Shown here piece by piece: positions 481-27,400 of a DNA stretch of 64,000 bases. A model generated the notes under the pieces. The model was not told the DNA's origin and made no database searches. It worked only from the letters and a program-made list of their open reading frames with translations. The stretch lies in assembly GCA_031423615.1 (NCBI GenBank), contig JANPFV010000055.1, forward strand, positions 474 to 64,473. The letters run 5' to 3'. This stretch comes from Candidatus Omnitrophota bacterium (GTDB lineage Bacteria; Omnitrophota; Gorgyraeia; Zapsychrales; JANLHA01). The position numbers were made by a program, and so were the translations under genes. Position 1 is the first letter of the stretch. The number at the start of each line of letters is the position of its first letter.

Positions 481-3400
481 TAAAGCATTGCCGTTTGTTC
501 CTATGGTCCGTGCCGCCGTGGGCGTTAAAGACGAAAATGCGGAAATGTTAAAAGTCGCAGCACAGACGACCGGCCAAAGCGATGTTTCCGCCGCAACCGC
601 GATTTATGCGCCCAAGCCGGTGCAACCTCAAGCCCCGCAAGAAAAGCCGCAAGACGAGGAAATGGACATGGCGGCCCACCGTTTCCGTTCCCACAGCTTG
701 CAATTGACCAACGGCAAATCCTTGCTCAGCTATTTTCCGGCGGAAGCCAAGGCGAATTTGGACGCGGTCCTGGCCTTGATCGAAAATGAAGATGCCCGTT
801 TTGAGCGTAATATTTTATCCGCCCGCATCAAAGACCTGGAAACCGAGAACCAGATCATCGAGTCGCAAAAGCAATTGGAAGAACATAAAGACACTTTGCA
901 GAAAACGGAATTTGAAAAACAATTGGCTGAAGCCGTGCAAGCGCATGGAGAGGCTGTGGCGCAACGCGATTATATCGTTCCTTTGATGACCATGATTTTG
1001 GATGTGCGCGCCGCGACCCGCAGTGGCGGCGAAGAAAACGCTTTGCGCAAAGCCTTGCGCGATTTCTATGCCGCTCACAATGCGGTCAACGACAATAGCG
1101 CGGAAAAAATCGAATCTGCCTTACGCGCTTCCATTTTCTACCATCAATATGTCGACGGCGCGCGCGACCAGCTTCTTGACAAATTAAGCGCTATGATCGC
1201 CGAATTAAAGAACAGTGCCGCCGTGAAGGTGGAACCTTTAGTCATCGCCGCTTTAGAAAAATTACGCGCCTGGCAAATCGCAAATCCGCAGGAAGTTTTG
1301 ACCTATACCCAATTTATTAATCTTCTCGGCGAAAATACGGTCAGTGAACGCGTCATGGTCGGTTTAGTCCAGCGCGATATTTCCGCCATTGAACTGATTG
1401 TTAAAAACATCCGCAAGAATTTGGGTGCCGAAGAAGAACCGGCCTTGATGATTTTTGGAGTGGAACGTTATTCATTGAACAATTGGATCAATGTCCAGTT
1501 CCCGCATATCAAGGAATATGACTATGATCTTAAGCAAACCAATCTTTATAAAAATTTGGCTGAAGAATTAAATCAATTCTACCGCGCCGGTACGTTGCGT
1601 GCGGATTTTGGTACGGTTCATGGGACAAAGGAAGACCTTAAGGCCGCCGCTGACAAGATCGCCGGCGTGAAAGTTTCCGAGGAAGATTCTAAGAAATCCA
1701 AGAAAGCCGGGGCTACCGCCAGTGTCGGCGTGACCATTGATACGCACGGCAATTTCTTCTTCGGCCTTAAGGCTAAGGGAACAGCCAAGGAATTTATCAA
1801 TCGCAATGAGGCGACTAAGTTCACGCGGGAACAATTTATCGATACTCTGGGAACCGCCCAAAAAGCTTATAGCGAAGCTGTCCAGAACGCCACGCCATTA
1901 ATGGAAGCGGCAATGAGAGTCATTCGATTGAAAGAAGAGATTGCGGCTTTGCGGGCCAAGAGCGATAAGACCATGAAAGACGCGGCGGATATAACCGATC
2001 TCGAGAGAAAATTAAATCAAGAGCAAGGTAATCTGGGCCGTTTGATGGGATACGAAGTCTTTGGATTTACTTTCGATATGAGTTTGCAAAATCTGGAGAC
2101 ATTCTTTGAAGAAGAAATTTTAGGCCGTCTGGAAGCCGCGGCCATAAAGGTCCTTGCAGCTAAATTGGCCGGCATGGGCGGTTTGCGTATGACGTACGAT
2201 GTCGACTGGTTAAGCCGTATCTTTATTTACTTATCCGTCGGCACCCATGTGCAGGACAAACAGAGTTCCATGCCTTTCTTGTTGACCCTTAAAGCTATCT
2301 TGCATGATCCTTCCGAAAGCTTAAAGAAAGAAATCAATAACCGGAAAATAAAGGCCGCTTTAAACGAAGTCGAAAAAATCAAAGAGCAAATCCGCAACCT
2401 TATTCCCACGACGGAAAACAATATTTGGATGCGTCTGGTTTATCAGCATGCGCTTAAGATCATGTCGGCTTATTCCATGGATCAAATTGAGAATATTCCT
2501 GCCGAGACCGAGACCAAGGCTGCTAAGTCGGATGACAAATCCGACAAAGAGCCCAAGAAATATTCAGATGCCGAAGGTGTGGATTTGACTTCGGTTTCTT
2601 CCCAACCTAAAAAGATAACGGCCGAAGCGGCGCAAACAGCTTTGAACCAAATTGGCAAAATGACCTTGGACAAAGTCATTGAATTCGCTTCGAGAATTCC
2701 GGAAAAACGATCTGAGGAATTCGGAAATAGCGAGCATACTCTGTTACGTACACCGGAAGTGATCCGCGCCGTTTCCGAAGGTATTTTGCACAATACCGCA
2801 ACCGACAAAAAAGCTTTCGAAAAAATGTGGATTCCCGCTTTCGCCATGCTCATGGAATACGGCGTGTGGCCGCAAGACATGACCACAGCCGGTGTCTTAG
2901 CCCAGATGCGAACGACCTTGCTCGCCAATGGTGCGACACAAGAATTTGTCGACGAAAGAATGACCCAACTCGCCGATATGCGCCGCGATTACATTACCCG
3001 CGTTTTAGTCGCTAAACTGGCGTCCCGCGGTTATTTAATGGAATTGCCCAAACTTTCCGACGAGGACAAGAAGAAAATGGAAGCATTAGACAATAGCATT
3101 GCTCAAATTCTCGCCAGCGAACCGGATGATTTTAAGGGTTCGGTCAAGGTCACCGACAAAAATGTCAAGGACCTCACCGCAAAACTATTACAGTTGAAGG
3201 CTTTCTTGGCCACCGATGACGCTGACATTATCCAGAGAGTGAAAGCGGAACAGGAAAAGTCCCAGCCTCAAGAGCAGAACTTACAGGCTGTTTTAGAAAA
3301 CATTACGCAACGCATGGAGCAGTTTACCGCGGATATTATTAATCTTTCTATGAATGAGCTAAGCCCTCCCGCTGAATTGGTTGAGGCCATGGAAAAAGCG

Positions 3401-9400: not shown

Positions 9401-12400
9401 ATGGTCTATAACTTCATCCTTCTTTTGCGCGTCAATCCGCAAGCTCTTAAAGCTTTTGAAATTATTTTTGGTATCGCGATTCCTCTTTCCGGTGATTTAC
9501 GATTTGGAAAAGATAAAGAGGAACAAAAAGAACAATTGGAATTTCTTTTTAGCCTTTTCTATAAGGAGGGGGTCACTAAGGATGAGGTCACTTTAAGTAA
9601 ATTAGGCTCTGATCCGGCCGGCGCTATCGCTGATTTGGCCGGTGTCGCCGTAATCATCAGCGCTTTACAGAAGAATGAAATTAAGAAAGACCTTTTTGTG
9701 GCCTGGACCGCTGGCAAGCCCTTTGATTTGAATGGACGATCTTTGCCCGCGACGATTAATCTTGGTAAAGAGTCATTAAAAGAATTAGGAAAAGACTCCA
9801 TGCAGCGTCTGGCCGATGCGCTCTTTGCTCTGTCGTACTATATCAATCATTTCCTCAAGGAAACAAAAGCCGCGGGCATGAATGTTGAAGAATTCAATTA
9901 TGTTTATGGTTTACATTCTTTATCGCCGAGCTTTACTTTAGGATTGAATGATACGGATGTGGCGGCGGCGATCTTCTCGATTGTCAGCGGGTATAACGGA
10001 GACTTTGCACAGCAATTCACCGGACGGGAACCGGCCATCTATGTCCGCTTGTTGACCAAGGTCCGCGATGTCATGGTCTTAATCCGTACCCGTCCCGATC
10101 TGGTTTTAGCACTTAATAAATTCCATCATCTGGGTATTCCGATGGGCGGGACGTTTAATTTCAATCCTAACAATCCTCAGCGTTTGGATCTGGCCCGCAT
10201 CGGAAACTTCCTTTTTGGACGTGTGGCGCTGGCCATGATCGATGTCGAAGGGTTTGGCGGGTCCATTCAAGCCTTCTGGCGCTTGCAAAATTCCAAGCAA
10301 GACATGTTTATAAATGTTCCGCTTCCGTCGGAAAAGATTTACCAAGATGCCGATGCCTACGCGGCCATGATGATCAAATTGGACCAAACCTGGTCGGATG
10401 TCGAAGCCCGCTTGGGTCATCCGGTGGCTGTCGATCCGGAAAGTGTCATCCAGTATCAGAAGAGCGCCGGCAAGGTCCTTATTACCATTGCACCGGAAGT
10501 TACATTTAAGACTAAGTTCATCAACCCCATGAGTGTGGCGCAATACACCATCACCTATGTCGCCGAGGGAGCGAGCTTAAAAGAAGTGGAAGACCGCCAC
10601 ACGCGCGAAGCGGACGCGATTGTTGACGCGACTCAGATTGTCAGTATCGCCGAACGCGGGAAGATGGATGAGTATAAGAAAGAAGTGCAACAGACCATCC
10701 ATTTCTATCATGAGAACGGCGAAGAATTTTATTCTTCTCTGCAGACTTTTGACGCAACGCCGACGGGCGGAACATTGAAGAGTGAAAGAAAAGAAGACAA
10801 AGAACACGGTTATGCCATGGTTACCGAGTTTAATTACGCGGAAAATCGTCCGTGGCGCGTTCCCGGACCGCGTCATATTCCCATCTATGTGGCGGATACG
10901 GCCAAGACCTTTATTGAAGCCTCCGGGAAACGTATTTTATATGCCCAGACCGATACTTTAAGCATTTCCGAAGGAACACGCGAAATTCAACAGCACGTCA
11001 CGTTCTTTTCGCCGGACGGTAAAAAGTCCAATGAAGGTTATAGCACCATGGGACTTTATGCCGCTAATACCTTGGAAGAACGTCAGGGTGTTCTTGAAAA
11101 CGGCGTTTTTGATCTGGACCGCATTATCAAATTCCAGTACAAGAGTGCCTTTGCGGAAGCCCTGCGGAGAATTTCTTTGGGGACCACCTATGATTGGCGT
11201 GGCGAGAAATTGTCCGAATCCGAATTATTGGAACATCACGGTCCGCGCTTGAAGGTCAAAATCACCGACTTAGTCAACAATGTCCGCCAGATCAATGTTG
11301 TGGACTCTTTCAACAAAATTTATACCAGCGAAAAATATATTGACGTCGGTTCGCAGTCCTTCCAGATTTTGCATAACTATAGCAGTTATGGCCGTCCCTT
11401 CCGGGTCACGGAAAATCATTTTGACGATCCGATTTTAGCCGCTTATGGCGCTCCTCAGATCGGGGAAACAATCGACGTTCACACCGGCTTAAAGGTCACC
11501 GAATCCCGCGCCTTAGGATTTAATTCGGAAGGCGGTATCACCTTCCTTCAGCGCCAGCTTATTTCCGATGTGGCCCGCATTTATTTCGATGACGGTCAAG
11601 GCCGCCACAAATTTATCTTTGCGGGCAAGGATGTGCATGCCGACATTGTGACCTATGACGGAATTAATAACGTCCAAAGGATTTCAGCTGACAGCGTTGC
11701 GGAGCTCAAGTACCAGGATAAATTCTATCGCGCCCGCAATATTTCCAGCGATGGGACCCGTTATGCTTGGAGCAATGATATGCAAAAGGCTGGAAACGTC
11801 ATCGACGAAAGCCATCCGACCAGCGTCAAAAACGGTGTGCTGGTCAACCGCATTTACAATCCCAACACCAATCTGGAGATTTTTGCGAGTATTAATCTTT
11901 CCCTCGACTTAGTCCAGCATTTGCGTGCGGAAAGCGGCGATAATTTTGAAGAAACCGCCATTATTTATACAACCTTGGATATTGAAAAACAGCGTGTGAC
12001 TTCCAACTCTTTAGGCGACCTTGTCGTCGTTTCTCAGACGCTTGACCATCAGGGCCGGCCGGTGGATGAAAAAGGCAAACGGCTTTATAAATACACCTTG
12101 GCCGAACGCGAAATGAAAGGCACCGGTCTTAAATATAAGGTCAAGGTCCAGGTCTGGAATGGCCGGGATTCTTCGGTCAAGGTCGCGACCGCCGCAGGCA
12201 CCGAAGAAACGACATATGAATTTAATGATGTTGAAAATATCAAAGAGGGTGTGACAAAAGACCAAGCGGGCCGTGTCGTTATCATCACGACGCCGGAACT
12301 CGACGAGAACGGGAAATTTACCCAGCCTTATCTTAGCCAAAGGACCGCCAAGGCCGTTCAATACAATCCCAACACCGGAGAAACCCGCGAGATCATCACA

Positions 12401-15400
12401 TACAGTTTGACCGGTCAGGTTTTAAAGAGCACGGTGGAAAAGACCGTAGATGACGGACGCAAGGTCAAGGAAACGACCGACTATGTTTATAATTCGCAGC
12501 GCGTGGTTGTCCGAGCCACGACTACGGTGGAAGATACCAGCCTGACAAAAGAAAACCGTCAAGACCGCCATGTGATCATTGAAGTGGATTCAACGCTCTT
12601 CTTAGATATTTACGGCCGCGTGAAAGAAGAATATCGTAATCGTCAACGCATGGTGGCCAACCAAAGGATCGTCGGAACGGGTGTTGAAAGTACCATTGAA
12701 ATCGAAGCCGCGACCGGTCTTGTCAAATCTCAGACGATGAACACCGCCAGCGCCGGATGGCAAACGGCCCGCAGCACGCATAATTCTCTGCGCGTGACGA
12801 CGGATACGGTCAAATACAATGAAAGCGGCGACGTGGTCACGACGGCCAAAACGGAAATGGATAATGAAGGCCGCATCAGCCTGCCGTACCGTTTCAACGG
12901 ACAATCCAAACTTTTCAAGAACAATCCCAATACCGGTTTAAACACCGTCGACATCATTGAAAATACAACCGGTCTGACATTAAAAACATTGTTCGATACC
13001 CGTACCGGTCCGGTCACTGTGGACAATAGATATAATATTTGGCGGGTCTTGACCGGATCGCAAGCCACGGGCCGCGATGGCGTGATCTTTACCATCAATC
13101 CGCATTTGGACCTTCAGGGCCGTGTCAGTTTACCGTATCGCGCCAAAGCCCAATCGGCGGTTGACCAAACATTCAGCGCGACCGGTATCGTCAAGAACGT
13201 CGTCATCGACGGCGCAAACGGCTTGGTTTTGGAATCCGGCGTTGATACTCGCACGGGCCGCGAAATTACCTACAATACCTATAACACCAAGGAAGTTTTC
13301 TTAAGCTCCCGCACACTTAATGCCGACGGAAAAGTTGTGACCTTGACTGATGCGAGCCATTACATCGACGCGCAAGGCCGCATCGTTGAGAATTTGCGCA
13401 GTCAAGGCTTGGCCGGGGCGGAAGAATTCAATCCCAATACGTTTAGCTTGACGACGATGTATACGGAAGTCCCGTCGGGATTGGTTTATTATATCAAGGT
13501 CGCCGCGCAGGCCGGTGATGAAACAACGGCTTTGACCTACAACCCATTATGGGTCCAGACCGATGGTTTGACTGTCAATGCCCGCGGTATTCCGTTGGTT
13601 AAAGAGACCGTCCGCTTGGATGTCTTTGGCCGGCCGGTCAATGTTGAAGGCATCCGCGTTTTCGGCCGTCTAGTCAAAGATCAGCATAATCTGGTTACCG
13701 ATGTCCGCCGTCATGTTGATCAGGAACTGGTGACCGGTTTGATGTGGCACGATGAAACGGCCAATGAAGCCGGATCGTTTGTCAATGATACGACATTCAA
13801 GAATCTTCGCCAGATGGAACTATCCTGGACCCGCGACGGCGTAACCGGTACGCCGTTATCGGTTGCCACCCGCGTCAATTACAACCGGCTAGGATTCTTG
13901 ACTGTCGACAGCTATGGATTTATCACCCGTAAATTGGACCGCAACACGACGGATTTGGTGGGGACCTTAGTCGGCGTTTCTAATGAAAATGCCGTCACGG
14001 AAATTACTCTCGATGACATGCGCATTGAAAAATTCAGCACGACGGCGGTCAACATCGGGACCTATCAAAATCCCATTGCGGGTATGATTATGGAGCAGTC
14101 GGAAGGTTTGGGTTATGGTTTGCGCGCCGGTGAAAATCTTTCTGCGGCCCGCACCGAAGCCTTTGTCAAACGTCAATTGCTCTTCTTGCCTTTGCAGGTT
14201 TTTGCCGGAGAATATTCTCCTGCCGCCGGACAATACGGCACCTTGGTTTCACAGTGGAGCGATAATTTCCGCATGCGCAGCCGCAGTACCCATCTTTACA
14301 ATCACAGCGTCCGCGAAAATGAAACCGATAACGCCGGACGCAGTCCGGTCACCTTTGAAGGGTATAGCAGTCAAGGACGCTTTGTTGCGGAACACGTGAC
14401 TTTCGCCACCTTCTCTGGACTTCTCGGTATGGTCGGTAAATCCCGTTCATCCGAAACCTATATTTATGATCCGCTCGCTTTTGAATATAAGGGAGAATTA
14501 TTTTTAAGCGCCGGGCTGGAAAGATTCGACGACGGAGAGTTCGTCGATGGATCGGGCCGGACCCGCATGGTTTGGGATAACCATAAACAATCCTTGCGCT
14601 GGGTCGAATTGCAAGACAACCGCAGTCGCATTGAACAGCGCTGGGATGGGACCATTCAGCCTTCCGGATTATTTACGGTGAATGAAACGTACCGCTTGTT
14701 CTATTGGGGTTTCCCGGGCCGGGCGCGCTTGGCCACCTTTACGATGTTGGATTTGACCGACTACAACGGCCAAATTTTAGGCGGCAGTTTATTGGGCGAG
14801 TCGGCTTTGTTGGATACGGCAGACAAAATCGTCGATTTAAGAAAGACCCATTTGAGTTCACTCTTTGATGAGCGCGGGAGAATCCATTCTGCGGTGATTG
14901 ATCATCATCAGCATAATTTTACCGTTTCCGGCATGCACAAAGAATACCGTAACGCCCGCAGTTTGACCGAAGAAGAACATTCCGGTGTTGTCAATGATTA
15001 CGGATTGTTTGAGACCGACATGATCAAATACAATTCTTATTTGACGAGAGAGGAAAAACCGGCGGCTTTGGGTGTTTACAATGTCGCTGATCGTTCCGTC
15101 ACCACAACGTTTGACAGAGAAGATAATAATAAGCAAAGCATCTATTCTCTCGCTAACAATAGCGCCCAGATTTTAAGCGACGGCGGAATTGCCTTTGACA
15201 TCAAGTTCGGCCGCGGGGAAATGCCTTTCGGTTTACCGATCACTTACGAAAATATCCGTGCTGTCGGCCAGGACATCGCCTTTAGCGAAATCTCGGATGT
15301 CCGCCGGGAATTTAAAAACAACAAGGGAAGACCGGAATATTATTTCAGCAGTTTTAACCATTTCGATAAAAACTTCTTCCCGGTGGGTGATCCTAAATAT

Positions 15401-18400
15401 ATTTCCTTCTTTACCTATCCTGAGCGCGGTGACAATCGTTTGTCGGTGGAAGGAAATACCTATCTCTATAGCAAGAAAGAAAAGCAAATCGAACAAGACT
15501 GGATCGCCAAAGATCAATTGACGGGCGTTCTATACTTCCATGTCAATTCGGACCAGAAAATCACTTATCCGGTGGTCCTGCGCAGTGTAGAAGACCATCG
15601 CTTCGGGGCGCGTTTATTGCGCAGTTTGGCTTCGCGTTTGGACGGGAGAACAGCCGGGATATTCGGGGAGCATGCTTTCTTCTATATTGCTTTAGATAAT
15701 CTGGGGACCAACATTCATGGTGAACTGCAAGAATTGACCGTCATGGATGCGCGGGAAGATCCTTATACCACCGAATGGCTCCATAAATCCTTAAAAGATT
15801 GGCCGCTCCTTTCGACCGATGCCCGGCGCAAGATCAAGAAATATCTCGAAATCAAACGAGACATTGTTACCAATGAAGATAAAGAACAGATCCTCACCGC
15901 AATCATTATCGTCGATGAGAAAGAGCCTTTGACCGGCAGTCGGTTACCGCGCTTTATGACGGAATATCTTCCGTCCTCTATTTACCGGAATATGGAAGAC
16001 ACCAGTCTTTGGCACAAACAGCAATATCGTTATGAAAGAGGACAGCTGGCTGAAAAAGATTCTAAAAAGAGAATTGATCTTTGGGATGACTGGGCCAAGG
16101 AAGGCGTCCACATCATGAGAAATATTATTATTTATCTCGTTCCTGCAGCGGTTGTTTTAGTGCTTTTGATTTGGTTGGTTATGAAGGCGTTAAAGATGTG
16201 GTTTGATAAATTCAGAAAGCAACCTACGCGTGTTTCGCAATCCAGCGATAAAGAATATACTATCCAGCCTTTGGAGCATAATGGATTCCCTGCCGATGTC
16301 GAAAGCAATGCTGAGGGGATAGCAAACAGCAACTTAGGCCCCGCCGAAAATAACATGAACCATTTATTGCTTCGCGAGCAGACAGAAAAGATATTCGCAG
16401 AATATTTCTGGGTCCTTACCCATTTTATTCCCCGATTTTTTGGCGGCGGTAAGGAAAAGGCCCAAGAGTTGGCCGGAACATTAACGCGCCAGGATGCTCT
16501 TATCTATTACAAGATTAATACTCTCTCCGGGAACCTTAACCAAAGCAATCCTATTTTCCGGGCTGTTCTCTTTCATATCGCGCGCAACATGGCTTTGAAT
16601 GGTCGCGGCAGTTCTATTGGTCCGGCGATGGAAACAGAAATTAGACGCTGGACCTTTGTGATCACAAAGGGATCACGTCTCTATACACGTATTGTTAATG
16701 GAGAAAAACAGGTTTATGGGATCCTTTTGAAATATTATGTTGTCAAGGCTGGATTCAATTGGAAGGTCATTGCTAAAAAATTGATTGATAATGGGTGGGC
16801 CACGCGCGTCAATAATGATGAATTGATTTTGACGGCGGATCTTGGTCGCGATAGTGCCGCCATGGCCGCAGTGTTTGAAAAAGATACATGGAAAAATCTT
16901 TTACCTGTCCTACAACAATCCCAGTATCAATACAAAGGAACATCCAATCCCATACGGCCGGGCGATATGATGCACACCGGAGATGTGGAAGGTTTATTTA
17001 AAACAAAGGGGTATGTGGCAATATATCTTCACTATTATTGGAATGCTGGCGGAAAAATGTGGGATCCTGCGTTCAGCGCCGGCCAAGGCAATAATTTCCC
17101 GCAAGATTTTGAGCACGACGGGAAAACGTATGATTTAAGACCGTATAAAACATATCAAGAAGTTACCGGCGGACGCGGAGGATGGAAGAGCCGTCTTAAT
17201 GGTGTGATTCAGAAACCTTTTAGAGCTTATTATCAGATTCTGAGTTTCTTTGCGATCACCAGCTTGGCCTTGGTCTGGATGGGACTTTCCCCGGTAGTCA
17301 TTATTCCTAACGCTATTCTCTTTGCGGTGATTTTCTTAGGGACCTTTATCGTCCTGAAATTGTTTGAACGCCATTGGCAGGCCCATAATGATGGAACAAG
17401 AATGTTTGGCCGTCCCATACCGACCTACACCGGTCGTGCTGTTCCCAATCTCACGGCAAGACATTGGACGGCCCGGTTGGTTTGGCTGGCGGTCTTTATC
17501 CTCCACGTTGTGTGGAATGCCTTTATGTTTAAAACCTTGATAAGCGGTTCTATTCTGATTCCTCTGGGCAGTCCGATTCTGATGCCCAGCTTAGGCGTCT
17601 TTTTGACCGCTTGGCCGGTATGGGTTTTTGCTATCCTGATTTATTTCTGGACCCAGCCTCGCATGCAGAGAAATTCCTTGCAAGATAAGTCTCTTGTGAC
17701 CCAATATTTAGCACCGCTGATCTTTGTCGGTCTTGTCTTTGTCGTCTGGACATTGGTGGGCGCGGTGATGGGCGGGGCCATCATGATCTTTGTCTTATGG
17801 GTGCCGTTTGTTGTGGGCGCTTTTCTCGACACATATTCTTTGCTGTATGTTGCCCAAACAATTCTATCTTACGCCAAAGGGATTTTCATAGGGATAAAGA
17901 TGGGTAAGAAATGGCAAGACATTGATAAAGTCATGTTTGGCAAAGGCCGGTCCATTGTTTACGGCGCCTTTTACCAGGCTTTCAAAGATAAAATTGTTCC
18001 GCAAATCGCCTTAAGGGGTGAACAACCTTTGAGTGAAGCCCAACTCCTCATTGCCTTCGCTAAGTACTGGAACATGATCATTCTGAATATGGGTGATGGC
18101 GTTGAGCCCAGTGCGGACTTAAAACACCTTATTTCCGAGGGTAATGATCTTCTCAGCGCCGAAGAAGTTGAACGTTATAGCTTTGTTCTTATCGGCAATG
18201 ACAGTCATAACAAGAGTGATTTGAACGGTCAAATTGATTTTGATCGTCTTCCTGACTTGAGCCGCGCGCCGGTTAATCCACGCGCCCATAAACGTCTGGT
18301 CGTTTTGATTCAACAAATGTTTATGAGAATGCCATCGGTATATTCCACCGATGATATCAACTGGACGACCATGGCTCCGGTTTATGACGAAGGCGTTTTG

Positions 18401-21400
18401 TATCGTTTGAATACCTCGGCGCCATTGGCTCCCGCTTTGAATAAGGAATATGATAATGGAAGACATACCTTTTTGACTTATTTCATTTCAACCCACCCCG
18501 ATGAATGGATTAACTTTATAAACCGTATTAAAAGACAGTTGGATCATATTGCTAATCTGAAAGTTCGCGCCCAGGTCAGCCGGGATGTGAAAGCCTTAGA
18601 GGGAATGACCGGAGCGGTTGGGGTGCCCTTGGTTTTGGAAAATGAAGATATTACCACCGCAGTTGAGATGTGGGCTTCCAGTAGATTCCAACCATTGGGA
18701 AGATTTATCAAGGGGGCTGAGAATTACAGAAAAGCGCTGGAATTCCGGATCCGTATTCAGTATCGCGATCTGGATGATCAGGCCATAGCTCAAAAAGTCC
18801 GTGATTCCTTCCAACTCCTTATCTCCTATCAGTCTTATTCTGTCATAATTAAGAAAAATAAAGAGGAAGGAAAAGAACCCGACGGGCGTATTACCGCCTT
18901 GCATGAATTGATGGGCCTTTATCCTGATCTTGAATTAGCGTATATCGATTCACAGGATGGAGAAGTTTCCAGTGTATTGATGCGGGGTGTGGACCATAGC
19001 GGTGCGCCGATACAAGTTTATCGTATTCAACGTTTTGCTCCGATGATTTTGACCAATTCCTTCGGTAAACCGGAAAATCAAAACCATATGTTGACCTTTG
19101 TCCGCGGCCGCAAAATCCAGACCATAGATATGAATCAAGATGTTTATATTGAAGATGCCTTCTTTATGCCTAATTTATTGGAAGAATTTAATCTGAATCC
19201 GTATTTGGCTCTTTTAGGTTTCCCGGAAGATCTTATGACCGAAGACTGGAATGGCGTTGCCGGATACGGTGCTCATGCGGACCGGACCTTTTTAACCGTT
19301 GTTCAGCGTGCATTGAATATGATGAATGCCCGTTATCACTATGGCCATCCCGATGTTTGGGATGGTGACTTTGTGCGCTTCCAGGGCGGGGTAAGCAAGA
19401 GCCATGTGGTTTCGGAAGATATTATGGGCGGGTTTAATGTGGTCAATCGCGGGCGGACCATTGATATAAGAGAATATATCAAGGTCGGAAAAGCCCGCGA
19501 AGCGGCCGTGACCACCTTTGTAGGGATGTTCGGTAAATTTGCCATGGGCGCTCCGCAACAAGTGCAATTTGAGGTCGTCAATGAAATGCGGGACAATCCT
19601 TCTCTGGGAAATGGTCTTGACCGCGGGTTACTCCAGTTGAGCACGCATTACGGCGGACCTGGTTTCTATCTTAAAGAACCGCTCGTTAAAGCCATGAATT
19701 TCTTTTATATTCTGTGGTTGGTATTTGGCGGGGTCAGTGCTTATAGCGCTTTTGCCTTGGCGATCACCTTGGCTGGATTGGGTATGGTCTTTGCTCTTTC
19801 CATTACCTTTACCGGGTTGTTGAGAATGGTTGAAGATTATGGAGCTAAAGGGTTGTGGTTATGGATTAAGGTGACAACGACTTCGGCGCCATTTTTCCAA
19901 AGTATTATTCCGGCCCACGCGGAAGGCGTTTCCCGCGGACATGCCGGGAATGCCATTTATAACAAAACCGGCCGTTCGCCCGGTTTGGATATCCAAAGCC
20001 TATATGTCGATCAACGTGATGACTTGGGTGCCATACAACCAAGTTTGTATAAAACCTTTGTTCGTACTCATCTTGATTTGGCTTTGGTCTCCCTTGTTCT
20101 CATTGTCGTAGGTATAAAGATTTGGTGGAATTCATCGATGATTTTGTCCTTCTTGCCGGTCATTCTGTTTATTTCCATGTATTTGGTTCCTATGCTTGTT
20201 CACCCCGGAACGACACCTTTGGATGGAGGATTGGTGCAATGGGGACGGCATTTCAGCAAACACTTTAAAGATATTTTCGTTCTTATTAATCAAATTAGAA
20301 AAGGCGAGAAGCCTGCCGACCTGGAAAGTAATGTTATGCAAGTGGCATTTCATGGATTTTTCATCCAAAGCGCTTATTTAATTTTAGGTATTTTGCTGGC
20401 ACCTTTTGCTAAAAAGAGCAGTTATGTGGGTGTTGCGGCCGGTGTGACGTTGGGAATGGGAGTTGTTGCCGCTGGGATTTTTGCCGCTTTGAGCGCTTCG
20501 TATTGGCTCGCCGGAGTTTTAGTCTGGTTTGGTATTCTTATTACGGGTTATGGCTATCGTTATAATCCCGGCTGGGCCAAGCTGGAAAAGAAGATTAAAG
20601 ATGATCGCAGAAGAGAGGCGATCCAGGCGAGAGCGGCAGAAGACGCGACGGATGAACGTTCTTCTTCGGCGGTGATATCGTCGGACAATCAGGATTATAA
20701 GGCCAGCAGCGCGATTCAAATTAGCGAATCCGCCATGTGGGCTTCAGGGCATAATGCCCGCGTTGAAAATGCCAAAGGGCATATTCATAAACCCTCCAGC
20801 AGTTCTTCTTCCGCTGTAGGGGCAGGCGGTGCTGGTCATGCTCGGATTTTCCCGGTCACCGGTCCGGTCATAAATGAAAACCAGCCGACGGTTACCGTGA
20901 AGGTGAAGTTAAAGGATGAGAATACCGGCGGTGTTGATATCGAGCTTACTCCTTCGAGAGAAGCCAATGTTTCGGAAGCCTTGGCTTTTGCTTTTGAAAA
21001 TCAGAACTTGACGCCCGCCGATATTCAGAATCGGGTGGCCTGGATTGGCCCGGCGGAAAAGAAAATTTTCTCTTTCAAAAAGCCGGTGCCAACCAAAGAA
21101 TTTGAACTGCGGTTTCATGGTCAAGGGGAAAGTTATGTAAAAGACAATGTTATCTATGTTTCTCTTTCGTTATTGCATGTTCTCAAGGGAGAAAAAGGAG
21201 AATACTTGACCGATAATCCACAGATGCATCAGAAGGTCTTGAATATGGTATTTTCCTATCTCGTTTATCTTCTTTTGCATCCTGCCGAAACGCCGGCGGC
21301 CGCTCAAGCTAAATTAAAAACCTATGTGAGTGTCCATACCGATTATGCCACGGCTTTAAGTCTCTTGTTTCAGACGTCTGGTTTTAGAGCTGACAATGAA

Positions 21401-24400
21401 TTTAAGACCTTGCTTGAGATTGAAAAATTAGCGGCGCGGGATTTGATCAACTTCTTTGTCCAGCAAGGTTTAACTCTCGTCGATCTTTTGGCCCGTGGAA
21501 CGGTTTATGAAGATGGTGTTGTTATCGCCAGCGATGATGTAACGACATTTGAGTTTGCTCCGGAATTGTATGTTAAAGGCAGGCTTAAAAGGGTTGTTGT
21601 TTTTGGTGGGGTAGGCCGCCTGACCCTCCCGCTGATTGAACGCGCTATTGCGGCAGGATATAGCCTGCAGTTGCCGACTTTTGGCGCGGTTGAATCTGCG
21701 GACGATTTAGATGTTTTTAAAAAGAGGGTTTTTAGTGAGGCCAGAAGGGGGCATCAGAAACCGGAGGCCATTATTAAAGGTATGGGGATTTCGGAAGCGG
21801 ATATTATCAAGCAAATCATGAGTGCAAAATTAAAAGAGATGAAAGGAAATGGGGCCACCGAGGCCACAATCGCCGCATTTGAAGCCGGTATCTTGCTTAT
21901 TAAAGATTCGTCCAATACACCTGAAAATTTTAAAAAATATTTAGAATCCCTGAATCAGAAAGGCAGTCTTTTGGCCGCCGGTACGCAATCGCGACCCCAT
22001 CGCATTTTGATTATCGGGCAGGTCCCGCAACTCTTGCGAAATCTCGAAACTTTCAGAAAAGAATTTGAAAACATCATTGAGAAAGGTCAAATTACAGCCG
22101 AAGCTTTGGCTGGTCCTTATTCTGTCAATGGTCTTAATGCGGCGATGATGGAAAGATTAAGCGGAGAAATGTTTCGTATCATTGTTTATGCCCAGCATGG
22201 TGATTTGGGTAAAAAATTTAATTTGAACAACATTCCGGCACAATATTTTATGGTGGCCCATATTTTATTTAGTTTGATACCGTATGAGGAGCAAACTCAT
22301 ATTGCGGACAAATTCATGAGAGCATGGACGGAGCATGCCCAGCCTTTAGGTGAAGACGAAATACGAAAGGGATTGCCTGCCGCCGCCTTAGAATTTTTTG
22401 AAACTGTTTATCTTATGGCGGAGGAAAAGATAAGGCCGGGAAATAATCCTCAAATTGTCCAACCCAAGAGTTCTTTAGAGATCCGTTTAGACAATGCGGT
22501 CGCAGCTCTTAAAGCAAAAGAGTTTATCACGCCAGCTGATCTTCAAAAATGGTTTGAGGAAGTGGGCAGGGATTTTGGTCTTTTACAAAAACGTATAGCG
22601 GATTGTTTGGGAGTGGCCCGCGGCAGGGGAGTGGAACGCACACCAGCCGGAAAAGCAAAAGACCAGAAAGATGCCACATTACTCGTCGATAAGTTTAAAC
22701 GTGATGAATTCTTAGGAGAGGATGTGAAGGGTGAGAAAGTCGTTGAATATATGATCGATGATGGTTTGCAAGATCCTCAATGGATCAGGATTCATCCGAT
22801 CGATAGAGTCAGATCCGTTTTACAAAATTCAATTAATAAATTCCGACTTGATCAAGTCAATACCGAACACGTCAAGTATGCCCTGACCTATTTTGGCGAT
22901 AATATGATAGCTGTGGCGTATTTGGCTGACCTCAAGAGCCGGGTTGACGGACACACCAGCCCAGCATTTAGGAATCAATTGGAAAATGAGACTTGGGCCA
23001 GAGAAAAAATAAATGAATATAAAAAGACAAGGGCTATTGAAACCTATTCACGTCCTGATTTACACCCCTTCCGCGCTAATGTTGAGCAAGATTTGATTTT
23101 AATCGGTCAGGATTCGCAGAGAAAGCAATTTACTCATATTGCAGATTCGCCTTTTGCGGTTGCCTTGATGCATTTGACGAGAGACACTGAGATTGAGGTA
23201 TCTTACAAAGATCCTGTTTGCGAAATTGATTTTTCGAACCCTAATGATATAAAGTTCCGCGTTAGAATTATAAGAATGAATTATGTTAATGATTTACCAG
23301 AAATGGACGCCCTTTTACTGTCGGGCGAGCGCCCAATGCTCCCCGTGGTCGTTCAAACCGTATATTCCTTTTCTGTTGAACAGGCCAAGACTGAATTTGG
23401 ACCTGGCTTGTTTGGATTGTTTGCGCTTATGCCTGAGTCGTATCTGCGATTATTGATTGATCTAAACGCAGGAAAACCCAGAGTGGAAAAAACCACATTT
23501 TTCCAGGCCTTTATTGACCAAGGCGTTACGGCCATTCCACTGCATGTTGCCAATTTAAAAACGGAACTCAATACCTATTTATTTAGAAGATTCTTTTATG
23601 CTTTGACGCCTTACATTAAATTTATTATTGAAATTAATGGAAAGTTTTATGCCGTTATTGGCGAGATCCATACGCATCCGGTTGTCTCCAAGGGAGAAAA
23701 ACCGTGGCCGACAGTTATGATAGAGGCGCTTGAACTTGATCCCCGATTTTTTGAATTGCTTTCTCCTGCAGACGTCACCTCAACGCTGGATTTTGTTAAT
23801 CACAGTGTTTTTATGAATTTACCGGGCCTGGATGGGATTTATAAGATCATGCAGTGTATTGGAACGGTGGATGCAGCAGGTAATTTGGGGGATATCCATC
23901 CAAATGATTTTGACGATTTGACATTGGAGCAATCCCAAAAAATCTTAAGCGCGGCCAAGGCGGCTCACGAAGCGGAGAAAGCGGGTCGTGCTGGGGAAGA
24001 GGCAAGGCAGCATTTTGCGAATATGCGAATTTTAGAAAAACGTAGTATAAGGCGAGCAATGGATCCGAAGTTAAACCGTATTGCATTAATAGTTACTGCG
24101 GATGGAAAGATTATTGGTTTTTCAAAATCCTCTTCACTCACTATCTTATCTGAAACTCCGAAGGTCTCTTCCTCGCCGGTCGCGGTTTTTGCGGCCGGGA
24201 CATTCGATTGTGAGATCCAGCAATTGTTGAGGCAAAGCGGCAGTGATATTCCTCCTTTCCCGTCCCACCTGATTAATAAAGGTCAAGTTTTGTTGGCTGG
24301 GACAACCCTCCAACCTCTATCGGCCACTCAACAAAGAACATTCGTTCAAATGTTTGATCGCAGTCTAAGTTATCATCATCTTGGTCAAGAACGTAAAAAC

Positions 24401-27400
24401 CACCGGCGCTATCCCTATAAAGTGCACCCTCTTGGCGTTGCGTTTATCTTATTTAATTCGTTTGGGGTGAGAGTCATTGAACTAAACGGTGCTGCACTGG
24501 GTCATGATTTTGGTGAAGATTCCATCATAAAATATCTCCCTTACAGCGCAGATTATGTCGACATGAATGAATTGCGCAAACAATTTCATGCTAGGGCGCA
24601 TGTGACCCCGGTTATACGTAAAGCGATTGACCGTGCAATTGAGAATGAATTCTTAATGCTTCGAATCAAGGGCGTCAACCCCGATTCCTACTTAGAAACC
24701 GTTTATCGACGAGCAGCCTTTCACCCAATGGGTGAAAAATTTCACTCGTCGAGGTCTCGAGGGGAGAATCATTTTCTAAGTAGGAATTTGGGCGTCAATT
24801 TGGATGTTGACTTAACCATGAAATATATTCGCGCTATGACCAGAACAAAAGACCGGGACTTGTTTTTCGTGAAGATTCAGAAAGCTGGGGCCGACAGCCG
24901 CCACATTTCTAATGCTTTGAAAAGCAAATTAGAAAAGTGGGCGCAAAGAAGCATTGAGCGCAATATGACCCGCTATAAAGCCGGGCTTATTCGGATGGGT
25001 GATTTCTTGATTATGCTAAAGCTCGCCGACATTATTCACAATATGTTAAGCGACATCGATACCGACGATCCGAAATTGATGCAGAATCATCTTTTGGGTA
25101 AGAACGGGGTTGTGCATAAATATCTTGATGAAGTTGAACCATCCACCGGCACCAGTTTCTTGCATGCCTTGTCACCGCGCTACCGGATCGCCAAACTCTA
25201 TTTCGGTTGGGCGTTTACAGAAGCTCTGCTTAAAACATGGTCAAATATTCCATTGGCGCAGAATATGAGCGCCGCCGAAGCCTTAAGAATTGTCAATCTG
25301 ATCGATCCGGATTTTGAATTGAACACTGAGTTAAGCGACGGTGTTGCTCGTGACGTCTTTTCTTACGGCCAGGCTTACTTTGAAAGAGAAATTACCGGTG
25401 CCCGTGCTTCCAGTCCCGTGCAGAATACGCAAGAGTATTTCCAATTCTTAAATTCCTTAAATTTTCCGAATCAAACCGTTTGGATTATGCATATTGGCGG
25501 GAGAGAAAAGCTGTTTTCGTTAGATAGCATGCCATGGGAGATGAGGGTTATTTATACGCCCCGCCTTAGGAAATTTGATCGTATTGACATCTCTCAAAGT
25601 TTTAACATTGTGACAATCGATGAGCCGCAAATGGAATCTTTCCCAGAGGTGATGAAATTTGCTTTCCGTGTTTTGGCCCAGGACGGCGTTATTTTAATTC
25701 GTTTAGCACCAAATCAGTCCCAAGAAGACCAAACGGTTTTCCAAGAAGTCTTTAAGACCTATGGCCGGGCATTACAAGAAAACCATCAGCATTTGCAATT
25801 TGCAATGATACCTCTGGCGGATCAATATCGAATGTATGCTTGGCACATAGAACTAAAACAACCGGTGGCGGCACCGTCGGTTTCCCGTTCTCGGCAAAAT
25901 AACCTTATGACCCGGCGAGAATCTCTCCAAGTGCTCTCTTTAAGAGTGAAAGTATTTGCCTTAATGCTTTTGGCGACATGGTCTGAGCCCGCCGGTCAAA
26001 GAGAAAGGCCAGCGGAACCGACTTTAAGAGAAAACCTTCCTGCGGTGCTGACGAGAAATAAAGAAGACTCCGAGAGCGCCTCCAGCCCGGTGATGGATCG
26101 CCGACTTTTTGGTATCACATTATTCGCAATGCTATCTTTAAGAGGGGACAGCGATCTGCAAAGCCGCCTCTCTCTCTTGGAACAGGAAAAAATCGAAAAG
26201 ATTTTTGATCTTCTTAAAACGGGTGGACATTTGACAGCGCAAGAACAGGCTCGCTTATCCGCTTCCTATATTTTAGACGCCATCCGCAAAGGCGACCCGG
26301 CGGAGTTATTAAAGAAAACCGGAAGGCTGTATCCGGCTCTCTTCAATCATGTTTCTTATTTGCAAGTCCGGGGGAACAAACAGATCATTATCCATTCGGA
26401 CGCTTTCAATGATCCCGCGCATTTATTGACCGATCTTATTTTTGGTTTGGAGCAATTCTTACAGGAAAATGCGGCGTTAAGTAAAAAAGAAATTTTTGTG
26501 CAAGCGGTGGGGGCGACCGCGCGGGTTTTACGCCACATCATTGAAAGCAAAAAGTATCCTTTGTATGAAGAAGATCTCAAGCAATATGTTAAGGAATTTT
26601 ATGGACATTATTTGTACTTTAAATCTTTGCCTGTGCCGCGTAAACCGGGCGGTCTGAGCGCCTCCAGCTCGTTGACGGATTTGCCCGGAAAATCCACAAC
26701 GAAGCTCATTGTTATGCTACGCGATGTTGCTGCTTTTGAAGCATTGGTGGAATTCTATGTGGATTTTCCTCCGGTGAAGCCGGAATTCAAATCTTATAAT
26801 CCGACATTCCCTCCTATGAAGCCGGAATTCATATTAAATTATCACAAAAAAGGACGCGCGATATTCCAGATTTTAATCAGCCGTTTGAATAATGACCAAG
26901 ATCGTGCAGAAATGGCTGCGGCCTATAAGCAAGCCGATCCGCAGAGTGAACATTATTTCCACCTTTGGATGAAGAGGGTTTTTGATTCGGCCGAACCGTC
27001 CGTCAAACCTCACAATGGCGTTAAATATGCAGGCCTTTCTGCCCAAGGAGATTCTTCCGCCAACCCACATAACGGGATTAACTACCAAGGCGTTTTTAAC
27101 CTAGGAAATTTCTTAGCCCGCAGTCAATTAATACCGAATTGGCACGAGAAATCAACCGCTGATCTTCTTAATGCCCTAAGGAAGGTTGCTTCTTTTGCCG
27201 CGCGAATGAAAAAAGTTTATTCGGCCTTTCCTTCCATGAAGCCGGAATTTGTATCACGTAATGAGCAAGAAGGACAGCAAATAGTCCAGGCTTTAAGCAG
27301 CCGTTTGAATAATGAGCAAGATCGTGCAGAAATGGTTGCGGCTTTTGAGCAAGCTAAGCGCGACGACAAGGCCCGTCATTTTCATCCTTGGATGGAAAAG

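What the first reader, a model, noticed from the sequence alone, without database searches (positions are those of the whole stretch)
16117..20560. Eukaryote-type GT48 beta-1,3-glucan synthase (FKS/callose synthase) core with FKS-like TM-core-TM topology inside a prokaryotic giant gene
The region 18270-19690 matches remembered FKS1/callose synthase catalytic-domain sequence over several long stretches (KPENQNH...QTIDMNQD.Y.E.A...NLLEEF, HYGHPD...GGVSK, MWAS.R...Y.KA, YPDL.IAYLD). It is flanked by about 7-8 and about 6 predicted TM helices, as in Fks1. To my knowledge GT48 is overwhelmingly eukaryotic, so a bacterial copy embedded in a giant protein is unusual. It suggests either ancient sharing or horizontal acquisition, and a capacity to polymerise beta-1,3-glucan (curdlan- or callose-like) at the membrane.
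Basis: partly seen in the sequence, partly recalled or inferred. Interest (0 to 1): 0.8.

Follow-up and report, generated by a model that had tools for sequence, protein, structure and literature searches.

The report
Bacterial giant gene carries Fks-type synthase
A gene of more than 18,500 codons from an uncultivated Omnitrophota bacterium contains an apparently intact copy of the membrane enzyme that fungi and plants use to make beta-1,3-glucan, a family usually treated as eukaryotic, and it is one of dozens of such overlooked bacterial copies.

Summary
Window 16115-20560 lies inside one stop-free ORF (position 2 to 55711, at least 18,569 codons, open at the window's 5' end). It matches Pfam Glucan_synthase/GT48 at E=5e-67 and yeast Fks1 at E=2e-32. 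An AlphaFold model's 13 best PDB matches are all Fks1/Fks2. Eleven residues shown by mutagenesis or proposed from structure to matter in Fks1 are present. They are invariant or nearly so in 43 prokaryote-type and 52 eukaryotic GT domains. The layout is six TM helices, a cytoplasmic GT-A domain, then 7-8 TM helices.

The homologous unit is longer than flagged: aa 5098-6835, about 1,740 aa. That equals a stand-alone 1,740-aa relative from a metagenome. The host is Omnitrophota (MutS 81-82% identical to Omnitrophota MAGs).

The copy is not unique. About 65 clusters (50% identity) of prokaryote-type GT48 exist. Most named ones are Omnitrophota "hypothetical proteins", often deep inside 2,000-7,900-aa ORFs with different neighbouring modules. 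Eukaryotic sequences form one split (99.5% NJ bootstrap) and are less diverse than the prokaryotic ones, which argues against a recent eukaryote-to-bacterium transfer.

The most likely function is a processive UDP-glucose beta-glucan synthase and exporter. The beta-1,3 linkage is inferred, not shown. No paper found describes this clade.

The parts
2..55711 (+). Giant ORF, at least 18,569 codons, open at the 5' end of the window, stop codon at 55709-55711
   Evidence: the ORF listing gives 143..55711, 18,522 aa. Translation of 2-202 has no stop. Pfam finds SLT at the N-terminus, GT48, a weak RelA/SpoT-like hit, TPR, HTH, CheR, PALP and a deaminase.
15434..20647 (+). GT48 cassette (giant aa 5098-6835), the only part of the giant shared with other GT48-bearing proteins
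   Evidence: BLASTP to the stand-alone 1,740-aa P0001 gives 34% identity over 1,308 aa, plus an N-terminal HSP aligning aa 5098-5514 to P0001 residues 5-388. BLASTP of the giant against 152 GT48 proteins gives no hit outside aa 5098-6830.
15434..16123 (+). Cassette N-terminal region (aa 5098-5327), predicted outside the cytoplasmic membrane
   Evidence: Homology to P0001 residues 5-230. The side of the membrane is inferred from the positive-inside rule at the next helix. AlphaFold gave no confident fold.
16124..16180 (+). Isolated TM helix 'TM0' (aa 5328-5346)
   Evidence: Kyte-Doolittle mean 3.04. Two K/R in the 15 residues before it and five in the 15 after it. P0001 has a counterpart at residues 214-232.
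16181..17236 (+). Predicted cytoplasmic domain (aa 5347-5698), positional counterpart of the Fks1 accessory domain; no Pfam hit
   Evidence: Conserved with P0001 and P0005. No FKS1_dom1 hit. The AlphaFold model has pLDDT 43 and is not usable.
17237..17827 (+). Six TM helices before the catalytic domain (aa 5699-5895). The last one aligns with Fks1 TM6 (hot-spot 3 region).
   Evidence: Hydropathy and K/R distribution. phmmer aligns aa 5881-5927 to Fks1 residues 677-722. Helices are present in the AlphaFold model.
17915..19672 (+). Cytoplasmic GT-A catalytic domain of GT48 (aa 5925-6510); the Pfam PF02364 match covers nt 18275-19747
   Evidence: Pfam E=4.7e-67. AlphaFold pLDDT is mostly 85-95 across this domain. 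Foldseek's top 13 hits are Fks1/Fks2, best E=3e-25.
18383..18391 (+). Y6081-D-E6083, equivalent to Fks1 Y849/E851 (UDP-glucose binding)
   Evidence: Alignment to Fks1. E is invariant in 43 prokaryotic and 52 eukaryotic GT domains. Residue roles come from PMC12715860 and PMC10499315.
19067..19078 (+). K6309-P-E-N6312, equivalent to Fks1 K1082/N1085 (within GKPENQNH)
19127..19135 (+). D6329-M-N6331, equivalent to the Fks1 D1102-A-N1104 'DAN' motif that takes the place of the DxD motif of GT2 enzymes
   Evidence: D and N are invariant in all 95 GT domains; M is the commonest middle residue in both groups. The role of the motif is described.
19415..19420 (+). E6425-D6426, equivalent to the Fks1 E1221-D1222 'ED' motif (proposed catalytic base, finger helix)
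19490..19537 (+). K6450, R6452 and K6465, equivalent to Fks1 K1246, R1248 and K1261 (acceptor/product binding; interface helix 2)
19682..20542 (+). Seven to eight TM helices after the catalytic domain (aa 6514-6800), the putative glucan channel and C-terminal bundle
   Evidence: Hydropathy. AlphaFold helices. Foldseek alignments to Fks1 span 875-1,106 columns of the 1,132-residue query. Not matched by Pfam profile positions 516-819.
20660..20674 (+). First Ser-rich junction motif (SSSAV, aa 6840-6844), marking the C-terminal edge of the cassette
   Evidence: The motif [AS]SS[SA][AILVP] occurs 26 times against 0.6 expected, with none upstream of aa 6840.
55718..60087 (-). mutL (55718-57520) and mutS (57502-60087): context that shows the replicon is an Omnitrophota chromosome
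   Evidence: ORFs. MutS is 100% identical to P0263 on a 65,478-bp contig, and the next named hits (81-82% identity) are Candidatus Omnitrophica MAGs.

Best explanation
Giant aa 5098-6835 is a complete, functional-looking member of glycosyltransferase family 48 (the Fks1/callose-synthase family). It is carried by an Omnitrophota bacterium as one cassette of a multi-module giant ORF. Proposed mechanism: the GT-A domain faces the cytoplasm between TM6 and TM7. It binds UDP-glucose through E6083, K6309, N6312 and the DMN motif (D6329/N6331, metal-independent as in Fks1). It extends a glucan chain using the E6425-D6426 finger-helix motif, with H6402, K6450, R6452 and K6465 holding acceptor and product. 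The chain is threaded through a channel formed by the flanking TM helices into the periplasm or envelope, as a cellulose-synthase-like processive synthase-translocase. Shown here: family membership, an intact active site, the fold, the TM-GT-TM layout, the bacterial host, and the existence of a wide prokaryotic clade. Inferred: UDP-glucose as donor, the beta-1,3 linkage, the membrane orientation (N-terminal 5,300 aa outside, GT domain inside), and what the glucan is used for (envelope, capsule or attachment matrix). Regulation cannot be through Rho1; the conserved cytoplasmic domain at aa 5347-5698 is the candidate regulatory part.
For: Pfam PF02364 scores 227 bits, E=4.7e-67. The only PDB sequence matches are Fks1 and Fks2, E=2e-32. 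The AlphaFold model has pTM 0.69 and core pLDDT of 85-95. Its 13 best Foldseek PDB hits are all Fks1/Fks2 (E 3e-25 to 1e-18, up to 1,106 aligned columns). BcsA, chitin synthases and hyaluronan synthases follow at E>=1.5e-9. Equivalents of Fks1 E851, K1082, D1102, N1104, E1155, H1195, E1221, D1222, K1246, R1248 and K1261 are present. They are invariant or nearly so across 43 prokaryote-type and 52 eukaryotic domains, and their roles in Fks1 are documented in PMC10499315 and PMC12715860. Hydropathy and the positive-inside rule give TM0, then six TM helices, the GT domain, then 7-8 TM helices, with the GT domain cytoplasmic. The same layout appears in 24 other prokaryote-type proteins. The host is bacterial: mutS and mutL are adjacent, and MutS is 81-82% identical to Omnitrophota MAG proteins. 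Independent relatives: 931 library hits, with about 65 of the top 150 of prokaryote type. Of 17 named clusters, 12 are Omnitrophota. An Omnitrophota genome contig carries the domain inside an ORF of at least 5,893 aa. A stand-alone 1,740-aa homologue has stop codons in all frames upstream of its start.
Confidence: 0.75

Rival explanations
1. The module is a true GT48 relative, but it makes a different polymer from linear beta-1,3-glucan (another linkage, another UDP-sugar, or a short primer or oligosaccharide). In that case 'callose/curdlan-like' is the wrong product.
For: There is only 20-30% identity to characterised enzymes. The prokaryotic clade is very divergent internally, with mean distance 1.45. 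Some subclades change donor-side residues, for example the N1085 equivalent is G, A or H in 13 of 43. [quoted passage not shown]
Against: In this window every donor- and acceptor-side residue that is invariant in eukaryotic beta-1,3-glucan synthases is kept, including N6312. The only activity listed for GT48 in CAZy is 1,3-beta-glucan synthase (my own knowledge).
Confidence: 0.2
2. The GT48 cassette is a recent horizontal acquisition from a eukaryote (a fungus, plant or protist) by this bacterium.
For: GT48 is described only from eukaryotes in the papers examined. GC3 changes within the ORF near the cassette.
Against: The closest relatives are all prokaryote-type (35-41% identity), against 25-31% to eukaryotes. 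Prokaryote-type sequences are more diverse than the eukaryotic ones, and one split with 99.5% bootstrap support separates the groups. There are no introns and no FKS1_dom1. The low-GC3 region extends 40 kb beyond the cassette rather than being confined to it.
Confidence: 0.05
3. The region is an assembly artefact: eukaryotic DNA joined to bacterial DNA, or a chimera of two genomes. The 'giant gene with GT48' would then not exist in a cell.
For: The source is a metagenome contig. GC3 drops from 0.54 to 0.44 at about nt 16,019.
Against: A 55.5-kb frame without a single stop cannot arise by chance joining. Homology to the single protein P0001 runs across the GC3 change point. The same embedding occurs independently in many MAGs and metagenomes: P0010, P0016, P0028, P0041, P0134 and L002. 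mutS and mutL at the 3' end have the same GC3 as the 5' part.
Confidence: 0.03
4. The module is a decayed, non-catalytic remnant that serves only as a membrane anchor or scaffold for the giant protein.
For: The C-terminal TM half is shortened and diverged relative to Fks1. Most of the giant has no recognisable function.
Against: Eleven active-site residues are invariant or nearly so across 43 divergent prokaryotic sequences, which implies purifying selection on catalysis.
Confidence: 0.04

Closest known systems
Saccharomyces cerevisiae Fks1/Fks2 (GT48 beta-1,3-glucan synthase; PDB 7XE4, 8JZN, 9WZU and others)
   Same: Same Pfam family. Best sequence and structure match in PDB. Same active-site residues, including the D-x-N and E-D motifs. 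The GT-A domain is inserted between TM6 and TM7, with a cytoplasmic domain before TM1.
   Different: About 20% identity over the structural alignment. No FKS1_dom1 hit. There are 7-8 rather than 11 TM helices after the GT domain. There is an extra isolated TM helix with about 230 conserved residues upstream of it. The host is a bacterium, which lacks the Rho1 regulator. The module is embedded in an ORF of more than 18,500 aa.
Plant callose synthases (CalS/GSL, GT48)
   Same: The highest-scoring named eukaryotic hits, 28-36% identity over the GT domain. They share the IDMNQD and S-E-D variants seen here.
   Different: Plant enzymes carry FKS1_dom1, Vta1-like and PF25968 N-terminal domains and are about 1,900 aa long. 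None of those domains is detected here.
Bacterial GT2 processive synthases: cellulose synthase BcsA, curdlan synthase CrdS, hyaluronan synthase
   Different: A different CAZy family, with no Pfam GT2 hit. D-x-N replaces the metal-binding DxD. About 11-14% identity. No PilZ/c-di-GMP module was detected.
Omnitrophota giant proteins (West-Roberts et al. 2023, bioRxiv 10.1101/2023.11.21.568195; 'multi-enzyme metabolic cluster' class in bioRxiv 10.64898/2026.06.07.730766)
   Same: Same phylum, an ORF longer than 10,000 aa, many TM helices, many unrelated enzyme domains tiled along one polypeptide, and most of the sequence without annotation.
   Different: Neither paper's text mentions GT48 or glucan synthase, and the one supplementary file held for the 2026 preprint does not either. 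No SecA-DEAD, dockerin, C39 or S8 domains were found in this window's part of the protein.

Membership tests
CAZy GT48 / Pfam PF02364 Glucan_synthase | Significant match to the family profile above the curated threshold | tested here: met
   227.3 bits against a gathering score of 37.2, E=4.7e-67, profile positions 5-515 of 819.
CAZy GT48 / Pfam PF02364 Glucan_synthase | Closest solved structures by sequence and by fold are Fks1/Fks2, ahead of GT2 synthases | tested here: met
CAZy GT48 / Pfam PF02364 Glucan_synthase | Active-site residues of Fks1 (E851, K1082, N1085, D1102, N1104, E1155, H1195, E1221, D1222, K1246, R1248, K1261) | tested here: met
   All are present at aa 6083, 6309, 6312, 6329, 6331, 6362, 6402, 6425, 6426, 6450, 6452 and 6465. 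Eleven are invariant or nearly so in 95 domains; N1085 is kept here but varies in 13 of 43 prokaryotic sequences.
CAZy GT48 / Pfam PF02364 Glucan_synthase | D-x-N ('DAN') motif in place of the metal-binding DxD of GT2 | tested here: met
   D6329-M-N6331. The consensus in both prokaryotes and eukaryotes is D-M-N. Motif definition is from PMC12715860.
CAZy GT48 / Pfam PF02364 Glucan_synthase | Cytoplasmic GT-A domain inserted between two TM bundles (six TM helices before it, multiple after) | tested here: met
   Six TM helices at aa 5699-5895, the GT domain, then 7-8 TM helices at aa 6514-6800, with a consistent K/R distribution. AlphaFold secondary structure agrees. Only a hydropathy method was available, so the exact count after the GT domain is uncertain.
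CAZy GT48 / Pfam PF02364 Glucan_synthase | UDP-glucose:1,3-beta-D-glucan 3-beta-glucosyltransferase activity (EC 2.4.1.34) | not testable with these tools
   This needs an enzyme assay and linkage analysis.
Eukaryotic FKS/CalS architecture (subset of GT48) | N-terminal FKS1_dom1 (PF14288)/accessory domain upstream of TM1 | tested here: not met
   No Pfam hit at E<=0.01 in aa 4668-7667. A phmmer probe with the fungal N-terminus hits 40 eukaryote-type proteins and no prokaryote-type protein. The AlphaFold model of aa 5094-5700 was too poor (pLDDT 43) to test for a fold-level equivalent.
Eukaryotic FKS/CalS architecture (subset of GT48) | Activation by a Rho-family GTPase | not testable with these tools
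   Rho GTPases are eukaryotic, and no partner can be inferred from the sequence.
GT2 processive synthases (BcsA/CrdS/HAS/Chs) | Match to GT2 profiles, and the D,D,D,QxxRW signature with DxD | tested here: not met
   No GT2 Pfam family at E<=0.01. The fold is shared, but DxD is replaced by DMN.
Omnitrophota multi-enzyme giant proteins (bioRxiv 10.64898/2026.06.07.730766, class 1) | Omnitrophota ORF of at least 10,000 aa tiled by many distinct Pfam domains, none dominating by copy number | tested here: met
   At least 18,569 codons. Domains found: SLT, GT48, RelA/SpoT-like, TPR, HTH, CheR, PALP and a deaminase. The Omnitrophota assignment rests on MutS.

The most novel reading that the evidence does not exclude
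GT48 is not a eukaryotic invention. Omnitrophota, and possibly other uncultivated prokaryotes, hold the older and more diverse pool of Fks-type synthases. The single eukaryotic clade (fungal Fks, plant callose synthases, stramenopile laminarin synthases) would then descend from one ancient transfer out of that pool, or from shared pre-LECA ancestry. The enzyme targeted by echinocandins would thus have a bacterial origin, and a tractable, Rho1-independent, intron-free bacterial model would exist.
Probability: 0.3. Interest if true: 0.85.

Novelty: new variant of a known kind. Interest (0 to 1): 0.7.

Why it matters
Fks1 and callose synthases build the fungal wall, plant callose and algal storage glucans, and Fks1 is the target of the echinocandin and ibrexafungerp antifungals. 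The papers examined here discuss GT48 only in eukaryotes. A diverse bacterial clade with an intact active site changes the question of where the family came from. It supplies compact, intron-free, Rho1-independent homologues, including a stand-alone 1,740-aa gene, for biochemistry and structure. It also gives a second, non-GT2 route to beta-glucan in bacteria. For Omnitrophota biology it adds a polysaccharide-building activity to giant proteins that have so far been discussed mainly in terms of attachment and cell-wall degradation. Finally, the junction motifs seen downstream give concrete candidate sites for the open question of whether giant gene products are cut into pieces.

Tried and rejected
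1. The first word-indexed homologue search, with the 1,132-aa TM-GT-TM query, returned only 2 proteins, possibly because TM-helix words filled the candidate list. It was repeated with the GT domain alone and with the exhaustive HMMER library.

2. Exact look-ups of MutL and of the 100%-identical MutS (P0263) found no contig on record. The contig name and the sequence upstream of the window could therefore not be recovered.

3. AlphaFold of the cassette's N-terminal 607 aa, with a two-sequence alignment, gave pLDDT 43 and was not used for fold search.

4. The afdb50 fold library was unavailable.

6. Permissive Pfam (E<=0.5), NCBIfam and PDB sequence searches of the flanking 5,000-aa stretches found nothing beyond SLT and a weak RelA/SpoT-like segment. 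An Rhs/YD-repeat reading of the beta-rich region upstream of the cassette, which I suspected by eye, has no support.

7. GH13-like motifs seen by eye downstream (GFRMD, VRVDLGH) gave no profile hit and are not claimed.

8. Eukaryotic contamination, recent eukaryote-to-bacterium transfer and a pseudo-enzyme were considered and rejected (see the rival explanations).

9. Rooting the GT48 tree with GT2 outgroups was not attempted, because identity is 11-14% and only NJ was available.

10. Literature searches pairing GT48, glucan synthase or PF02364 with Omnitrophota, prokaryotes or Asgard archaea found no description of this clade.

Full report
**What is at the coordinates.** The window holds one enormous reading frame on the + strand. 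The ORF listing reports 143..55711, 18,522 aa. Translating from position 2 shows no stop codon upstream of 143, so the gene is cut by the window edge and has at least 18,569 codons. It is followed on the opposite strand by mutL (55718-57520) and mutS (57502-60087). The finding's interval, read in frame from 16115 to 20560, is giant aa 5325-6806.

**Checking the observation.**
- Pfam gives a single family for aa 4668-7667: PF02364 Glucan_synthase, 227 bits against a gathering score of 37.2, E=4.7e-67. It covers aa 6045-6535 (nt 18275-19747) and profile positions 5-515 of 819.
- phmmer against all PDB chains returns only Fks1 and Fks2/Gsc2, E=2e-32. The alignment covers Fks1 residues 810-1316, and a second short segment aligns aa 5881-5927 with Fks1 677-722, the TM6 region.
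- Hydropathy shows an isolated helix at aa 5328-5346, six helices at aa 5699-5895, and seven, perhaps eight, at aa 6514-6800.

**Active site.** The Fks1 structure papers list the functionally important residues (PMC10499315 and PMC12715860).
- For UDP-glucose binding: Y849, E851, K1082, N1085 and the D1102-A-N1104 motif.
- For acceptor binding, product binding and catalysis: E1155, H1195, E1221-D1222, K1246, R1248 and K1261.

In the window these are Y6081, E6083, K6309, N6312, D6329-M-N6331, E6362, H6402, E6425-D6426, K6450, R6452 and K6465.

In my alignment of 43 prokaryote-type and 52 eukaryotic GT domains, eleven of them are invariant or nearly so in both groups. Y849 and N1085 are kept in this window but vary elsewhere. 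The three positions where the window differs from yeast (D1080 to F, K1172 to A, N1220 to S) also differ in most eukaryotic sequences (E, Q and S respectively). They are therefore not family-defining. Conservation of this kind across very divergent sequences implies selection for catalysis.

**Structure.** An 89-sequence alignment gave an AlphaFold model of aa 5680-6811 with pTM 0.69. The GT core has pLDDT mostly 85-95, and the TM helices have only 50-60.
- Foldseek against the whole PDB ranks thirteen Fks1/Fks2 cryo-EM chains first: E 3e-25 to 1e-18, TM-score up to 0.49, and 809-1,162 aligned columns.
- BcsA follows at 1.5e-9, then chitin, hyaluronan and plant cellulose synthases.

**Topology.** The K/R distribution fits the following path: aa up to 5327 outside; TM0; aa 5347-5698 in the cytoplasm; six TM helices; the GT domain in the cytoplasm; then the C-terminal bundle. 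This mirrors Fks1, which has a cytosolic accessory domain, TM1-6, a cytosolic GT domain and then TM7-17. The window has fewer C-terminal helices. The orientation is an inference from a crude method.

**True extent of the unit.** BLASTP of the whole giant against 152 GT48 proteins finds similarity only within aa 5098-6830. The closest full-length relative is P0001, from an ENA metagenome contig of 5,428 bp. It is 34% identical over 1,308 aa, and its residue 5 aligns with giant aa 5098. P0001 is a stand-alone 1,740-aa gene: all three frames upstream of its start contain stops, and it ends with a stop. The GT48 unit is therefore a cassette of about 1,740 aa.

**Host.** MutS is 100% identical to a protein on a 65,478-bp contig from NCBI/Logan. 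The next best named proteins, at 81-82% identity, and those further down the list are all Candidatus Omnitrophica/Omnitrophota MAGs. The window is therefore an Omnitrophota chromosome fragment.

**Is a bacterial GT48 unusual?** Exhaustive HMMER against 1.84 billion cluster representatives found 931 proteins at E<=1e-3 and 207 at E<=1e-30.

Among the best 150, about 65 are of a prokaryote type. They lack the fungal/plant N-terminal domain and score higher against the window than against a fungal Fks. Many carry the domain deep inside long ORFs. Examples are P0010 (7,886 aa, domain at 5158-5694), P0016 (6,521 aa), P0134 (6,932 aa), P0041 (6,022 aa) and P0028/P0152 (5,775 and 6,877 aa).

Where a source gives a name, the tally is as follows:

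| Label given by the source | Named clusters |
|---|---|
| Omnitrophota (including Candidatus Zapsychrus exili) | 12 |
| Patescibacteria/Parcubacteria | 2 |
| Elusimicrobiota | 1 |
| "bacterium" | 1 |
| Njordarchaeales | 1 |

- Most of the non-Omnitrophota labels sit on short contigs (2.9-7.9 kb; the Elusimicrobiota one is 18.8 kb).
- The Njordarchaeales protein is 41% identical to an Omnitrophota one, so mis-binning is possible.
- Almost all of these proteins are annotated "hypothetical protein". NCBIfam has no model that hits the cassette, which explains why the clade has gone unnoticed.

In the one species-representative genome found, Omnitrophota MAG JACPWF010000032.1, the domain sits in an ORF of at least 5,893 aa. 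That ORF's other modules are ARMT1-like, guanylate kinase and NUDIX, all different from those here. The crude TM-GT-TM layout recurs in 24 prokaryote-type proteins.

**Evolution.** I built an NJ tree of 95 near-complete GT domains.
- It places all eukaryotic sequences on one side of a split with 99.5% bootstrap support.
- Mean pairwise distances are 1.45 within the prokaryote type, 0.80 within eukaryotes and 1.62 between them.
- With midpoint rooting, the eukaryotes nest among the prokaryotic lineages.

This argues against a recent transfer from a eukaryote. It does not settle the direction of any ancient transfer. The method is simple, the tree has no outgroup, and the eukaryotic sample is biased towards sequences similar to the query.

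**Literature.** Two papers on Omnitrophota giant genes do not mention GT48 or glucan synthase in their text, and the one supplementary file held for the 2026 preprint does not either. Searches pairing GT48, glucan synthase or PF02364 with Omnitrophota, prokaryotes or Asgard archaea found no description of the clade. GT48 papers treat the family as eukaryotic. The 2026 preprint does define a "multi-enzyme metabolic cluster" class of giant proteins, which this ORF fits.

**Most likely function.** The cassette is most likely a processive UDP-glucose-dependent beta-glucan synthase-translocase working as Fks1 does.
- Shown here: family membership, fold, active site, layout, host and clade.
- Inferred: donor, linkage, orientation and physiological role.

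I put 0.95 on GT48 membership. I put about 0.6 on the product being beta-1,3-glucan specifically, and 0.75 on the explanation as a whole. A plausible role is envelope or extracellular matrix glucan in these very small, host-associated bacteria. The N-terminal SLT lytic-transglycosylase domain and the predicted extracytoplasmic 5,300 aa before TM0 suggest that the synthase anchors a surface-exposed structure. That is speculation.

**Other things seen.** These are detailed under "noticed in passing".
- A protein-level Ser-rich motif recurs at module junctions, but only downstream of the cassette.
- A nucleotide-identical 22-nt hairpin occurs 11 times in both orientations inside the ORF.
- GC3 steps down from 0.54 to 0.44 near nt 16,019.

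The first two may bear on whether giant gene products or transcripts are processed. West-Roberts et al. state that this question is open for lack of known cleavage points.

**Verdict.** The finding is a genuine member of a known family in an undescribed prokaryotic guise, one of a sizeable clade rather than a unique oddity.

Noticed in passing
window 40202-40220, 42575-42593, 44459-44477, 46775-46793, 48116-48134, 49178-49196, 53483-53501, 54803-54821 (+); 49252-49270, 51214-51232, 53572-53590 (-): A nucleotide-identical palindrome, AGTAGGG-ACAGA-CCCTACT, has a 22-nt invariant core (AAGTAGGGACAGACCCTACTTT). It occurs 11 times inside the giant ORF against 0 expected from shuffles. It is always in frame and read as SRDRPYF in one orientation; in the other, the three copies read KVGSVPTY, KVGTVPTY and KVGSVPTF. 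It lies at module junctions in the last 15 kb only. As RNA it folds at -13.8 kcal/mol (z=-4.7). Four copies share about 55 nt. No Rfam family matches. The same 19-mer occurs 7 times in JGI metagenomes, in some cases in terminator-like positions outside long ORFs. It could be a REP/MITE-like element, a relic of intergenic terminators after gene fusion, or an RNA processing or pausing site.
   Followed up: partly
window 20660-54860 (giant aa 6840-18238); first copy at 20660-20674: The peptide motif [AS]SS[SA][AILVP] occurs 26 times against 0.6 expected from composition. None lies in aa 1-6839, and the first copy lies about 40 aa after the last TM helix of the GT48 cassette. Codons differ between copies and use both TCN and AGY serine codons, so the conservation is at the protein level. 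The motif often flanks the hairpin-encoded SRDRPYF, as in SSSALE-SRDRPYF...SSSAL. It is not enriched in other GT48-bearing proteins. These are candidate linkers or proteolytic processing sites of a polyprotein. West-Roberts et al. 2023 note that no cleavage points of giant proteins are known.
   Followed up: partly
window about 16019 (giant aa about 5292): Third-position GC is 0.541 for aa 1-5292, similar to mutS (0.549) and mutL (0.537). It is 0.439 for aa 5293-18522. GC1 and GC2 do not shift, while GC skew and AT skew also change near 16 kb. Homology to one protein (P0001) spans the change point, so a mis-join there is unlikely. The cause is unexplained: the two parts may have different origins, or may be under different translational constraints.
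   Followed up: partly
window 2-400: The giant ORF has no stop back to window position 2, so the gene is truncated by the window. The first recognisable domain is an SLT lytic transglycosylase whose catalytic E-S motif is at aa 9-10 (MSQESSF). This fits the cell-wall-degradation theme reported for Omnitrophota giant genes.
   Followed up: partly
window 8473-9372: A tandem repeat with a period of 234 nt (78 aa), 3.8 copies and 86% matches lies inside the N-terminal part of the giant ORF. The repeat unit reads ...WNYRNALMQ..DDKSAVEILNLLTGINFAKTEKYTAAELDELFTTLFNDPKD....
   Followed up: no
proteins P0085, P0014, P0021, P0060 (not in the window): GT48-type proteins are also deposited under Candidatus Njordarchaeales (Asgard archaea; a 2.9-kb contig, annotated as a GT2 protein), Patescibacteria, Parcubacteria and Elusimicrobiota. 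The Njordarchaeales protein is 41% identical to an Omnitrophota one. These may be mis-binned Omnitrophota contigs or a genuinely wider distribution. An Asgard copy would matter for the origin of the eukaryotic enzyme.
   Followed up: partly
window 28100-28620, 38450-38550, 47540-48900, 51790-53280: Other modules in the same ORF are a RelA/SpoT-like nucleotidyltransferase segment (weak), a TPR, HTH_3/HTH_31, a CheR-type methyltransferase, a PLP-dependent enzyme (PALP, E=1e-33) and a cytidine/dCMP deaminase. There are further TM clusters at aa 14183-15228 and 16013-16317. None of these modules is shared with other GT48-bearing giants.
   Followed up: partly
locus L002 (JACPWF010000032.1), 17-17698: In another Omnitrophota MAG the GT48 domain sits at aa 3337-3744 of an ORF of at least 5,893 aa that is open at the locus 5' end. 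It is preceded by ARMT1-like, guanylate kinase and NUDIX domains. The cassette thus combines with quite different partners in different giants.
   Followed up: partly
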